64,000 nucleotides of DNA, taken from the NCBI RefSeq assembly GCF_011045215.1, contig NZ_CP049201.1. The stretch is one strand, 5' to 3'. This DNA comes from Escherichia coli (GTDB lineage Bacteria; Pseudomonadota; Gammaproteobacteria; Enterobacterales; Enterobacteriaceae). Positions 25,978 to 25,995 of the stretch are shown piece by piece. A model generated the notes under the pieces. The model worked only from the letters and a program-made list of their open reading frames with translations. It was not told the DNA's origin and did no database searches. The position numbers and the translations under genes were made by a program. How positions within the stretch are numbered: position 1 is the first letter of the stretch; each line of letters begins with the position of its first letter.

Positions 25978-25995
25978 CAACGATCTACATCGTTG
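25978..25995. promoter_or_regulatory. operator-like palindrome CAACGAT-CTAC-ATCGTTG upstream of the small-C-B-A module
   Basis: Perfect 7-bp inverted repeat with 4-bp spacer in the promoter region. Confidence 0.45.

What the first reader, a model, noticed from the sequence alone, without database searches (positions are those of the whole stretch)
25978..25995. Perfect operator palindrome in front of the cargo module
CAACGAT-N4-ATCGTTG lies in the promoter region of the small-C-B-A module, downstream of two terminators that insulate it from the ProQ/PerC operon. This indicates dedicated regulation of the cargo module.
Basis: seen in the sequence. Interest (0 to 1): 0.3.

Follow-up and report, generated by a model that had tools for sequence, protein, structure and literature searches.

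The report
Private palindrome between conserved operator boxes
The 18-base palindrome is real but found only in this one copy of a phage-satellite island. What evolution preserves in this promoter is a pair of flanking 15-base boxes, which look like binding sites for a small island-encoded repressor or for the host regulator IlvY.

Summary
CAACGAT-CTAC-ATCGTTG is at 25978-25995, downstream of two terminators and about 50 bp upstream of a small gene. All genes here are on the minus strand.

It is not a conserved operator. None of 32 E. coli genomes and none of 17 close metagenomic relatives with this promoter has the perfect palindrome. Base 25978 is private to this window, and about five 7-N4-7 palindromes per 64 kb are expected by chance.

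The palindrome lies in a 15-bp spacer of fixed length and variable sequence. The spacer separates two conserved boxes, TTKCA-N5-YGCAA, exactly 30 bp apart (26007-25993 and 25977-25963). A -10-like hexamer follows box 2, and no -35 consensus is present. This layout holds in seven genera of Enterobacterales and in cf-PICI capsid operons (11% of E. coli genomes).

The "cargo module" is the morphogenesis/packaging operon of a 12.2-kb PICI satellite:
- its first gene, a 57-aa ribbon-helix-helix protein (by fold);
- a scaffold-like protein;
- a DUF2213 protease-like protein;
- a TerS-like protein.

Regulation most likely runs through the boxes. The binder is unresolved: the adjacent RHH protein, or host IlvY, whose published operator consensus (TTGCA-n5-TGCAA) the boxes match. 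As an operator the palindrome is ordinary. The box architecture has not been described.

The parts
25978..25995 (.). It fills most of the 15-bp variable spacer between box 1 and box 2 and overlaps CAA of box 1. On the inferred promoter it spans about -46 to -29.
   Evidence: It is private to this window. No covariation.
25993..26007 (-). Box 1: TTTCA-TGAAT-TGCAA, a conserved 15-bp near-dyad.
   Evidence: Invariant or nearly invariant in protein-anchored alignments across 7 genera. It matches TTGCA-N5-TGCAA at 9 of 10 positions.
25963..25977 (-). Box 2: TTTCA-GTTTA-TGCAA, the conserved second copy. It starts exactly 30 bp after box 1 and fills the stretch between the -35 position and the -10-like hexamer.
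25956..25961 (-). Inferred -10 hexamer CATAAT (TATAAT, TACAAT or TATATT in other lineages). No -35 consensus is present. The transcription start is inferred near 25951-25948.
   Evidence: Read from the alignments. The consensus scan finds no canonical -35/-10 pair on the sense strand. This is inference; no transcript data are available.
26102..26125 (-). Terminator 1 after PerC (GCCGGGA TTTT TCCCGGC followed by T6).
   Evidence: sequence; I17.
26055..26091 (-). Terminator 2 (12-pair stem followed by GTTTTT).
25756..25929 (-). First gene of the operon: a 57-aa ribbon-helix-helix protein (MRKASVKPVLLAREQ...). RBS AGGAG at 25942-25938.
25750..25763 (-). Weak terminator-like hairpin followed by TGATTTTTTG, directly after the RHH stop codon.
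   Evidence: Not followed up.
25132..25716 (-). Protein C (194 aa), scaffold-like. It matches the C-terminal third of phrog_6216.
   Evidence: 2.6e-47, profile positions 402-544 of 545.
24396..25067 (-). Protein B (223 aa), DUF2213, head-maturation-protease-like.
   Evidence: PF09979, 2.4e-6. (phrog_6216 1.1e-80; phrog_530 5.2e-5). Phage homologues.
23862..24389 (-). Protein A (175 aa), with an N-terminal HTH resembling the small terminase subunit. It is 93% identical in lineages whose upstream genes differ.
   Evidence: phrog_57, 1.4e-7.
26131..26957 (-). The upstream ProQ/FinO-like (26415-26957) and PerC-family (26131-26418) genes, which form a separate transcription unit.
23027..35232 (-). 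The whole island, a 12.2-kb PICI-type phage satellite. It is bounded by 26-bp direct repeats (23027-23052 and 35207-35232). It carries int (33956-35206), alpA-like (33404-33592), antA/B (32551-33351) and primase (28148-29896).
   Evidence: Relatives are annotated.

Best explanation
**What the palindrome is.** The perfect palindrome is a private allele. It sits in a spacer that is fixed in length (15 bp) but free in sequence, inside the promoter-operator of the satellite's morphogenesis/packaging operon.

**What is conserved.** The conserved, presumably functional parts are:
- two 15-bp near-dyad boxes (TTKCA-N5-YGCAA) exactly 30 bp apart, about three helical turns;
- a -10-like hexamer that directly follows box 2.

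On the inferred promoter, box 1 is centred near -51 and box 2 near -21. The palindrome covers the -35 position, where no consensus exists.

**Proposed mechanism (inferred, not shown).** A dimeric or tetrameric DNA-binding protein occupies both boxes on one face of the helix. This occludes the core promoter, so the operon stays silent until the satellite is induced.

**Who binds.** The nearest candidate is the 57-aa ribbon-helix-helix protein encoded by the first gene. It would autoregulate, as Arc does at P22 Pant. The host LysR-type regulator IlvY is a serious alternative, because the boxes equal its published operator consensus. My estimates are about 0.4 for RHH, 0.3 for IlvY and 0.3 for something else.

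**Effect of the palindrome-completing changes.** At most they tune promoter strength. Two of the substitutions that complete the palindrome change a -35-like hexamer, 16 bp upstream of the -10, from TCGTCA to TCGTTG.
For: **The palindrome is not conserved.**
- Among 5,426 complete E. coli genomes, 32 carry this 56-nt promoter core, at 85.7-92.9% identity and none at 100%. The best match reads CAATGAT-GTAG-ATCGTCA.
- All 17 close IMG/VR relatives (small protein 95-100% identical) have 4-5 of 7 pairs.
- 25978 is one of only 4 window-private alleles in 2.5 kb.

**The boxes are conserved.**
- Loci were anchored on the small protein, not on DNA. They come from Escherichia, Citrobacter, Klebsiella, Enterobacter, Pantoea, Rouxiella and Pectobacterium. 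They keep TTKCA-N5-YGCAA, a 15-nt spacer and a second TTKCA-N5-TGCAA.
- A relaxed pattern finds this in 63 of 65 sequences. The other two have it displaced upstream of an inserted gene (L030) or carry one degenerate half-site (L062).
- Distant homologues keep it as well (L067, L068).

**No structural covariation.**
- A register slid by +3 pairs better, at 72.3%.
- RNAalifold predicts no consensus structure.

**Promoter context.**
- -10-like hexamers sit in the same place across lineages.
- No canonical -35/-10 pair is found on the sense strand.
- Terminators recur directly upstream.

**The first gene is RHH.**

**The same layout heads cf-PICI capsid operons.** PerC, two terminators, boxes, small gene and morphogenesis genes occur in that order in 598 of 5,426 E. 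coli genomes, O157:H7 included.
Against: - No transcription start site or binding data exist, so the -10 and every position relative to +1 are inferred.
Three lineages (L008, L011, L030) reach 6 of 7 with different arm sequences. A lineage-specific dyad is therefore not excluded. attributes the excess to conserved columns at the spacer edges.
- The boxes do not change when the RHH strand residue K7 becomes T (L067) or Q (L068).
- Box pairs also occur in virulent phages that lack the RHH gene. Both points weaken the RHH-as-binder step.
- On the inferred promoter the box positions (-51 and -21) differ from IlvY's at ilvC (-65 and -34).
Confidence: 0.78

Rival explanations
1. The palindrome is a dedicated operator, bound by a dimeric regulator of the island (protein A or a roughly 100-aa regulator), and it controls the module.
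For: - Perfect 7-bp arms located in the -35 region of a promoter that lacks a -35 consensus.
- Three other lineages carry 6 of 7 pairs at the same register.
Against: - It is broken in all near-identical relatives, which encode the same proteins.
- There is no covariation.
- Protein A is absent or distant in many loci that keep the promoter.
- The chance expectation is about 5 such palindromes per window.
Confidence: 0.07
2. The boxes are operators for the host LysR-type regulator IlvY rather than for the island's RHH protein. IlvY is a scarce host protein. Bound to both boxes, it would hold the packaging promoter shut, and it might be titrated out when the satellite replicates.
For: - The published IlvY consensus is the 15-bp inverted repeat 5'-TTGCA-n5-TGCAA-3', with IR1 and IR3 31 bp apart (PMC5002191).
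- The window's own ilvY-ilvC O1 (43350-43364) is TTGCAGAAATTGCAA and O2 (43381-43395) is TATCAATTTCCGCAA.
- The PICI boxes score 9 of 10 here and 10 of 10 in L030, L011 and L029.
- They are the only pair of sites scoring at least 8 of 10 and lying 28-33 bp apart in 64 kb, where 0.27 pairs are expected.
- The flanks agree as well (R before, Y after).
- The boxes do not depend on variation in the RHH strand.
- The motif recurs in elements without the RHH gene.
Against: - The spacing is 30 bp, not 31.
- The position relative to the inferred -10 is about 13 bp closer than at ilvC.
- No biological rationale is known.
- The recurrence in virulent phages may be chance amplified by homologues. I estimate 1-3 independent chance hits, and several observed hits are coding-repeat artefacts.
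- A 5-bp half-site dyad matching one of about 200 known regulators is not very improbable.
Confidence: 0.3
3. The palindrome acts as a nucleic-acid hairpin. It would be a third, backup terminator or insulator for read-through from PerC, or a leader structure.
For: - The terminator scan flags 25996-25977.
- The 46-nt RNA folds at -14.8 kcal/mol, z = -3.65.
Against: - Only 3 G-C pairs, and the T run is interrupted (TTTCAGTTTAT).
- Two strong terminators lie just upstream.
- The hairpin is absent from relatives.
- There is no consensus structure and no Rfam match above threshold.
- It lies upstream of the inferred transcription start.
Confidence: 0.04
4. The allele matters only as promoter tuning. 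The substitutions that happen to complete the palindrome alter the weak -35-like hexamer and the flank of box 2, changing basal strength or repressor affinity without creating a new site.
For: - With CATAAT as the -10 and a 16-bp spacer, relatives read TCGTCA (4 of 6 to TTGACA) and the window reads TCGTTG (2 of 6). This is read.
- The last three spacer bases are semi-conserved (TCA, TTA or TTG) next to box 2.
Against: - The -35-like hexamer is not conserved across lineages.
- No expression data exist.
Confidence: 0.2

Closest known systems
P22 immI region: Arc (ribbon-helix-helix), first gene of the Pant operon, repressing its own promoter (own knowledge)
   Same: - A small RHH protein is encoded as the first gene of a phage-type operon.
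- A dyad operator lies between the -35 and -10 positions of that operon's promoter.
- A tetramer on a roughly 20-bp site is a good model for one 15-bp box, whose half-sites are 10 bp apart.
   Different: - No sequence similarity to Arc.
- There are two operators 30 bp apart instead of one.
- Binding is not shown.
- The downstream genes are morphogenesis and packaging genes, not an antirepressor.
IlvY operators O1/O2 of the ilvY-ilvC divergent promoters (PMC5002191, citing Wek and Hatfield 1988)
   Same: - The same 15-bp inverted repeat, TTGCA-n5-TGCAA.
- Two sites about three helical turns apart.
- An A/T-rich centre.
- The imperfect half-site variants TWTCA and CGCAA are shared with O2.
   Different: - 30 bp rather than 31 bp.
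- No adjacent LysR-type gene.
- The boxes lie about 13 bp closer to the inferred -10.
- The stronger dyad is often the promoter-proximal one.
- The regulated genes are unrelated to branched-chain amino-acid synthesis.
Gram-negative PICIs EcCICFT073, EcCIMP1 and cf-PICI EcCIEDL933 (PMC6092414, PMC6739421, PMC11773190, bioRxiv 10.1101/2022.09.08.507074)
   Same: - int, alpA, primase and PerC, with unidirectional transcription.
- A packaging module at the distal end.
- A TerS-like HTH protein, as the Rpp proteins are.
- The O157 cf-PICI has the same order: PerC, two terminators, boxes, small gene.
   Different: - In term searches those papers describe AlpA as the activator and return no promoter, operator or small regulator for the packaging operon.
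- Protein A has no sequence match to any PDB chain.
- This element carries scaffold- and protease-like genes but no capsid gene.
SaPI operon I (packaging operon) repressed by host LexA (Ubeda et al. 2007, listed in the references of PMC6739421; own knowledge for the content)
   Same: A satellite packaging operon with its own promoter, held off by a repressor. In that case the repressor is a host protein.
   Different: - A different host regulator and motif.
- The LexA-like CTG-N9-CAG seen downstream in some lineages has the wrong spacing, and I attribute it to the start-site motif plus the RBS.
PutA ribbon-helix-helix domain bound to GTTGCA operators (PDB 2rbf; the motif is recalled from memory, not verified here)
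   Same: - The recalled half-site GTTGCA resembles the box half-site (C)GTTKCA.
   Different: - Only 14% identity.
- PutA sites are single hexamers.
- This resemblance is a lead, not a test.

Membership tests
Conserved transcription-factor operator (the palindrome itself) | Dyad symmetry at the site | tested here: met
   7 of 7 complementary pairs with a 4-nt centre.
Conserved transcription-factor operator (the palindrome itself) | The dyad is kept in orthologous promoters, or its arms co-vary | tested here: not met
   - 0 of 32 E. coli genomes and 0 of 17 IMG/VR relatives have the perfect palindrome.
- 65.2% paired against 62.2% in column shuffles.
Conserved transcription-factor operator (the palindrome itself) | Overlap with core promoter elements | tested here: inconclusive
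   It covers the -35 position if CATAAT (25961-25956) is the -10. No transcription start data exist.
Conserved transcription-factor operator (the palindrome itself) | A cognate protein binds it | not testable with these tools
   Needs EMSA or footprinting.
Ribbon-helix-helix (Arc/MetJ/CopG) DNA-binding proteins (the 57-aa first gene) | Beta-alpha-alpha fold | tested here: met
   - The monomer model has pLDDT 84.8.
Ribbon-helix-helix (Arc/MetJ/CopG) DNA-binding proteins (the 57-aa first gene) | Dimer through an antiparallel two-stranded ribbon | tested here: inconclusive
   A tethered-dimer AF2 model forms strands 6-12 in both copies, with block-mean pLDDT mostly 84-94 in the folded parts. The linker construct is an artifice and the pairing was not inspected residue by residue.
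Ribbon-helix-helix (Arc/MetJ/CopG) DNA-binding proteins (the 57-aa first gene) | Sequence match to a curated RHH family | tested here: not met
   - No Pfam, NCBIfam, PHROG or PDB sequence hit.
- Foldseek is non-significant.
- The family is small: 56 representatives at 50% identity.
Ribbon-helix-helix (Arc/MetJ/CopG) DNA-binding proteins (the 57-aa first gene) | Binds repeated sub-sites at its own promoter | not testable with these tools
   Association only. The boxes lie within 90 nt upstream of the gene in nearly all loci. No co-variation with the strand residues.
IlvY (LysR-type) operator pair | 15-bp inverted repeat TTGCA-n5-TGCAA | tested here: met
   9 of 10 for both boxes in the window and 10 of 10 in L030, L011 and L029. 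Consensus from PMC5002191.
IlvY (LysR-type) operator pair | Two sites 31 bp apart (IR1-IR3), with the proximal one adjacent to or over the -35 | tested here: inconclusive
   The spacing is 30 bp in every PICI lineage. The inferred centres are -51 and -21, against -65 and -34 at ilvC.
IlvY (LysR-type) operator pair | Adjacent divergent LysR-type gene | tested here: not met
   No LysR-type gene in the island. Host ilvY lies 8 kb away in this window, which is coincidental with this integration site.
IlvY (LysR-type) operator pair | IlvY binds and regulates | not testable with these tools
   Needs EMSA and a delta-ilvY reporter.
Gram-negative phage-inducible chromosomal island (PICI) | int, alpA and primase/rep; unidirectional genes; 10-15 kb between att repeats; no tail or lysis genes | tested here: met
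   - int, alpA-like, antA/B, D5_N primase, ProQ and PerC, all on the minus strand.
- 26-bp direct repeats 12.2 kb apart.
- Relatives are annotated alike.
Gram-negative phage-inducible chromosomal island (PICI) | Induced and mobilised by a helper phage | not testable with these tools
   Experimental.
Intrinsic terminator (the palindrome as an RNA hairpin) | G+C-rich stem followed by a U run, and conserved | tested here: not met
   - Flagged by the scan, but with 3 G-C pairs of 8 and an interrupted T run.
- The stem is absent from relatives.
- No consensus structure.

The most novel reading that the evidence does not exclude
The paired boxes are a shared 'late-operon' operator of enterobacterial phage satellites. 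They occur in classical PICIs and in capsid-forming PICIs, and possibly in some virulent phages. They would be read by a host factor, with the branched-chain amino-acid regulator IlvY fitting best. A scarce host LysR-type protein would then gate satellite capsid and packaging genes, for example by being titrated out when the satellite replicates. The small RHH protein would act as a co-regulator or have another role.
Probability: 0.2. Interest if true: 0.6.

Novelty: new member of a known kind. Interest (0 to 1): 0.3.

Why it matters
As an operator, the palindrome does not matter. It is a one-off allele, and mutating it would probably teach little.

The re-examination does locate the real control region of the packaging/morphogenesis operon in Gram-negative PICIs. 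It is a terminator-insulated promoter with two conserved dyad boxes and an unannotated RHH gene. The same layout occurs in cf-PICIs, which about 11% of E. coli genomes carry.

Published work places these elements under AlpA, and term searches in four PICI papers returned no separate promoter or operator for the packaging operon. A defined 60-bp target and two named candidate binders, RHH and IlvY, make it directly testable how satellites time their late genes.

Tried and rejected
- **Canonical sigma-70 promoter.** None is found on the sense strand in the window, L008, L009 or L030.
- **Protein A as an Rpp.** No PDB sequence match.
- **The 90-aa second gene of other lineages as a toxin** (which would make the RHH an antitoxin). 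No family hit.
- **Promoter core as a hotspot of variation.** The STEC346 comparison suggested this, but diversity is average across 17 relatives.
- **Dyad tendency of the spacer across lineages.** It is significant against spacer shuffles, but conserved columns explain it rather than covariation. RNAalifold finds nothing.
- **A third operator.** The exact box-like site inside gene C (25353-25367) is kept in all relatives, but it is coding. Extra sites upstream in other loci lie in coding sequence.
- **AlpA as binder.** No box lies upstream of alpA.
- **LexA.** CTG-N9-CAG downstream of the -10 in some lineages has the wrong spacing and overlaps the RBS.
- **Rfam.** Nothing above threshold.
- **RHH in known phages.** tblastn finds none.
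- **Literature check of PutA's GTTGCA motif.** It failed, so that point rests on memory.
- **Kagunavirus sampling.** The whole intergenic region is conserved, so it is uninformative about the boxes.

Full report
**Observation.** The sequence is there. Window 25978-25995 (+) reads CAACGATCTACATCGTTG, with seven perfectly complementary base pairs on each side of a 4-nt centre.

All genes of the neighbourhood are on the minus strand. Read in the direction of transcription, the order is:
- ProQ-like gene (26957-26415);
- PerC-family gene (26418-26131);
- two intrinsic terminators (26125-26102 and 26091-26055);
- the palindrome;
- an RBS (AGGAG, 25942-25938);
- a small gene whose conserved start is the ATG at 25929.

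The palindrome is not rare by itself. The window has 14 perfect 7-N4-7 inverted repeats where first-order Markov sequences have 4.8 +/- 1.6. Twenty-two of 100 shuffles contain this pattern with up to two mismatches.

**What the element is.** The region belongs to a 12.2-kb island bounded by a 26-bp direct repeat (23027-23052 and 35207-35232). The island lies between comM and ilvG of an Escherichia chromosome, whose ilvG is 99.0% identical to the best E. coli match.

It encodes an integrase, a 62-aa AlpA-like protein, an AntA/B protein, DUF4222, a D5_N primase, ProQ and PerC, all in one direction. An iteron field (AAAGTGGGG repeats, about 27000-27440) lies upstream of ProQ. This is the organisation of Gram-negative phage-inducible chromosomal islands (PMC6092414, PMC11773190).

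**The "small-C-B-A cargo module" is not cargo.**
- C matches the C-terminal part of phrog_6216 and B matches its middle part.
- B is also DUF2213 and matches a head-maturation-protease family. It has homologues next to head genes of phages.
- A has a small-terminase-like N-terminal HTH.
- A is 93% identical in lineages where C and B are replaced by an unrelated 90-aa gene.
- Some relatives add a 205-aa protein and a 679-aa injection-transglycosylase-like protein.
- In relatives, the real cargo (SIR2, HEPN/DUF262/methylase, DUF4747 and others) lies beyond A and a 59-aa gene. In this window that position is empty.

**Is the palindrome conserved?** No.
- A 56-nt query around it finds the promoter in 32 of 5,426 complete E. 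coli genomes, at 85.7-92.9% identity and never 100%.
- The best matches read CAATGAT-GTAG-ATCGTCA or ...ATCGTTA, which is 4-5 of 7 pairs.
- The same holds for 17 IMG/VR relatives whose small protein is 95-100% identical.
- The perfect palindrome needs three alleles together: C at 25992, T at 25979 and G at 25978 (minus-strand letters). The first two occur separately in a few relatives. The third is private to the window, one of four private alleles in 2.5 kb.
- Diversity in this stretch is average for the region, so it is neither a hotspot nor a coldspot.

**What is conserved.** I collected loci through the small protein rather than through DNA. These were 7 species-representative genomes, 52 viral contigs, 5 E. 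coli genomes and distant homologues. Their upstream regions were then aligned.

Two 15-bp near-dyads stand out. Box 1 is TTKCR-N5-YGCAA and box 2 is TTKMN-N5-TGNAA. Both are TTTCA-N5-TGCAA in the window, at 26007-25993 and 25977-25963.

They start exactly 30 bp apart in every lineage, from Escherichia to Pectobacterium and Rouxiella. The 15 bases between them differ almost completely between lineages.

A relaxed pattern finds the architecture in 63 of 65 sequences. L062 has one degenerate half-site. L030 has both boxes (each a perfect TTGCA-N5-TGCAA) shifted upstream of an inserted 65-aa gene.

Directly after box 2 comes a -10-like hexamer (CATAAT here; TATAAT, TACAAT or TATATT elsewhere). A semi-conserved AYTG(T) follows, and then the RBS. 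No -35 consensus is present, and the simple promoter scan finds nothing on the sense strand in four lineages.

Taking CATAAT (25961-25956) as the -10, which is an inference:
- box 1 is centred near -51;
- box 2 is centred near -21 and fills the spacer between the -35 position and the -10;
- the palindrome covers about -46 to -29.

Three of them (Rouxiella L008, P. brasiliense L011, L030) reach 6 of 7 with different arm sequences.

This looked like covariation, but it is not.
- With column composition kept, shuffles reach 62.2% pairing against 65.2% observed (77 of 500 shuffles as high).
- A register slid by 3 bp pairs better, at 72.3%.
- RNAalifold finds no consensus structure.

The excess comes from semi-conserved bases flanking the boxes (TGCAA-Y-R... 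and ...T-Y-R-TTKCA). These flanks are themselves mutually complementary.

As RNA, the window's own allele would fold well (-14.8 kcal/mol, z -3.65), and the terminator scan flags it. However, it has a weak T tract, follows two strong terminators, lies upstream of the inferred start and is absent from relatives.

**The first gene.** The 57-aa protein has no hit in Pfam, NCBIfam, PHROGs or PDB sequences. Its family is small, with 56 representatives at 50% identity among 1.84 billion.

A tethered-dimer model forms a strand at residues 6-12 in both copies, followed by helices 13-29 and 38-54, with block-mean pLDDT mostly 84-94 there. The strand VKPVLL and the helix-2 N-terminus (APSIHxxAR) are nearly invariant. 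I therefore call it an RHH protein by fold, not by sequence membership.

**Who reads the boxes?** Two candidates emerged.

(i) The RHH protein.
- It is the only gene that always accompanies the boxes.
- RHH proteins typically repress their own operon from dyad or repeated sites. P22 Arc at Pant is the closest analogy (own knowledge).
- One 15-bp box with half-sites 10 bp apart suits a dimer of dimers.
- Against this, the boxes stay the same when the probable DNA-facing residue K7 is T (L067) or Q (L068). Two homologues have no boxes nearby (L070, L072).

(ii) The host regulator IlvY.
- A motif search of the window turned up the ilvY-ilvC operator O1, TTGCAGAAATTGCAA (43350-43364). O2, TATCAATTTCCGCAA, lies 31 bp downstream.
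- A phylogenetic-footprinting paper gives the IlvY site as the 15-bp inverted repeat 5'-TTGCA-n5-TGCAA-3', with IR1 and IR3 at -65 and -34 (PMC5002191). That is the box consensus, with nearly the same spacing.
- In the 64-kb window the PICI pair is the only pair of sites scoring at least 8 of 10 and lying 28-33 bp apart, where 0.27 pairs are expected.

**The box pair elsewhere.** A pattern scan of viral contigs for the box pair returned more than 120 stretches. Only 22 of 131 sites have the RHH gene downstream.

- *cf-PICI-type satellites.* The largest other group has this order: PerC, two terminators, boxes, TATAAT, a leader hairpin with a T run, a 68-aa gene, a lambda-gpE-like major capsid gene. 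This group is present in 598 of 5,426 E. coli genomes, O157:H7 included. Its 68-aa protein aligns co-linearly with the RHH family, but only weakly (hhalign E 0.05).
- *Virulent phages.* Further groups are Kagunavirus and Webervirus phages. Their whole intergenic regions are conserved, so they say nothing specific about the boxes.
- *Artefacts.* Several hits are coding-repeat artefacts.
- *Chance level.* I estimate only 1-3 independent chance hits for the pattern, so the cross-family recurrence is suggestive, not proven.

AlpA is an unlikely binder, because no box lies upstream of alpA. PerC is adjacent in E. coli lineages but not detectably in many others.

**Mechanism proposed.**
- Shown: a dedicated, terminator-insulated regulatory region; two conserved dyad boxes at fixed spacing; a variable spacer that holds the palindrome; an RHH-fold first gene.
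- Inferred: the -10 and start site; that a protein bound to both boxes occludes the core promoter and keeps the morphogenesis/packaging operon off until induction; and the identity of that protein.

For the binder I estimate RHH at about 0.4, IlvY at about 0.3 and another factor at about 0.3.

The palindrome-completing substitutions fall in a weak -35-like hexamer (TCGTCA in relatives, TCGTTG here, 16 bp from the -10). At most they may tune promoter strength.

**Comparison and novelty.** As an operator the palindrome is not a real conserved feature. What is there is a new member of known kinds: an RHH-headed, operator-controlled phage-type operon.

Term searches (promoter, operon, AlpA and similar) in four PICI papers returned AlpA as the activator and no packaging-operon promoter, boxes or small regulator. 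A literature search returned no paper containing 'ribbon-helix-helix' together with the satellite terms.

The identity of the boxes with the IlvY consensus is the one surprising point, and it remains unexplained.

**Verdict.**
- Observation: confirmed.
- Interpretation: partly supported. A dedicated promoter exists, but the palindrome is not its operator and the module is not cargo.
- Interest: low for the palindrome and moderate for the box architecture.

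Noticed in passing
window 43350-43364 and 43381-43395: The host ilvY-ilvC operators O1 (TTGCAGAAATTGCAA) and O2 (TATCAATTTCCGCAA), 31 bp apart, have the same consensus and nearly the same spacing as the PICI promoter boxes 17 kb away. 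The island is also integrated next to the ilv cluster here, although relatives integrate elsewhere.
   Followed up: partly
L193 2440-2720 (E. coli O157:H7 F8092B); also L092, L111, L101: Capsid-forming PICIs of the EcCIEDL933 type have the same layout: PerC, two terminators, box pair, TATAAT. A leader hairpin with a T run (ACTGGATAAACATCCAGT followed by TTATGATTTTTTT) then precedes a 68-aa beta-alpha-alpha-like gene and the major capsid gene. This promoter is found in 598 of 5,426 E. coli genomes. The leader terminator suggests antitermination control.
   Followed up: partly
L097 8964-9008 (Raoultella phage RP180, Kagunavirus); L098 1085-1129 (Klebsiella phage SegesCirculi, Webervirus): The same bipartite motif occurs in early intergenic regions of virulent siphoviruses that lack the RHH gene. 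In Kagunavirus, box 2 overlaps the RBS of the first downstream gene. This may be chance amplified by homologues.
   Followed up: partly
window 25353-25367 (minus strand, inside gene C): A third exact TTTCA-N5-TGCAA site lies about 610 bp downstream of box 2 and is kept in all 17 close relatives. It is in coding sequence, so its conservation is uninformative.
   Followed up: partly
window 27000-27440: An A+T-rich field of AAAGTGGGG(A) iterons in both orientations lies between the 115-aa gene and ProQ. It is probably the satellite's replication origin. A similar iteron field precedes the boxes in L068.
   Followed up: no
window 23027-23052 and 35207-35232: A 26-bp direct repeat, AATTAACTACACCATTAACTACACCG, itself an internal tandem of ATTAACTACACC, bounds the island. 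These are the putative attL and attR between comM and the ilv leader.
   Followed up: partly
window 25750-25763: A weak terminator-like hairpin followed by TGATTTTTTG sits directly after the RHH stop codon. It could attenuate transcription into C-B-A.
   Followed up: no
window 25982-25985: A Dam site (GATC) sits near the centre of the palindrome. It is kept in all close relatives and also occurs in the spacers of the Pantoea, Citrobacter and Rouxiella lineages (4 of 16 lineages; about 5% expected per spacer). Methylation-sensitive promoter activity is conceivable.
   Followed up: no
window 30765-32558: A 597-aa minus-strand ORF of odd composition overlaps a 158-aa plus-strand ORF (31153-31629) that has no family hit. 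Relatives annotate Icd-like and small hypothetical genes in this part of the island. The gene content here was not resolved.
   Followed up: no
L003-L005, L002 (E. coli EcPF14, F9792, MS8345, BCE049): Downstream of the conserved A gene and a 59-aa gene, relatives carry different defence-type cargo: SIR2, a DUF262/HEPN/methyltransferase set, DUF4747 and an RNA-binding-domain protein. This is a satellite cargo hotspot, and it is empty in the window's island.
   Followed up: no
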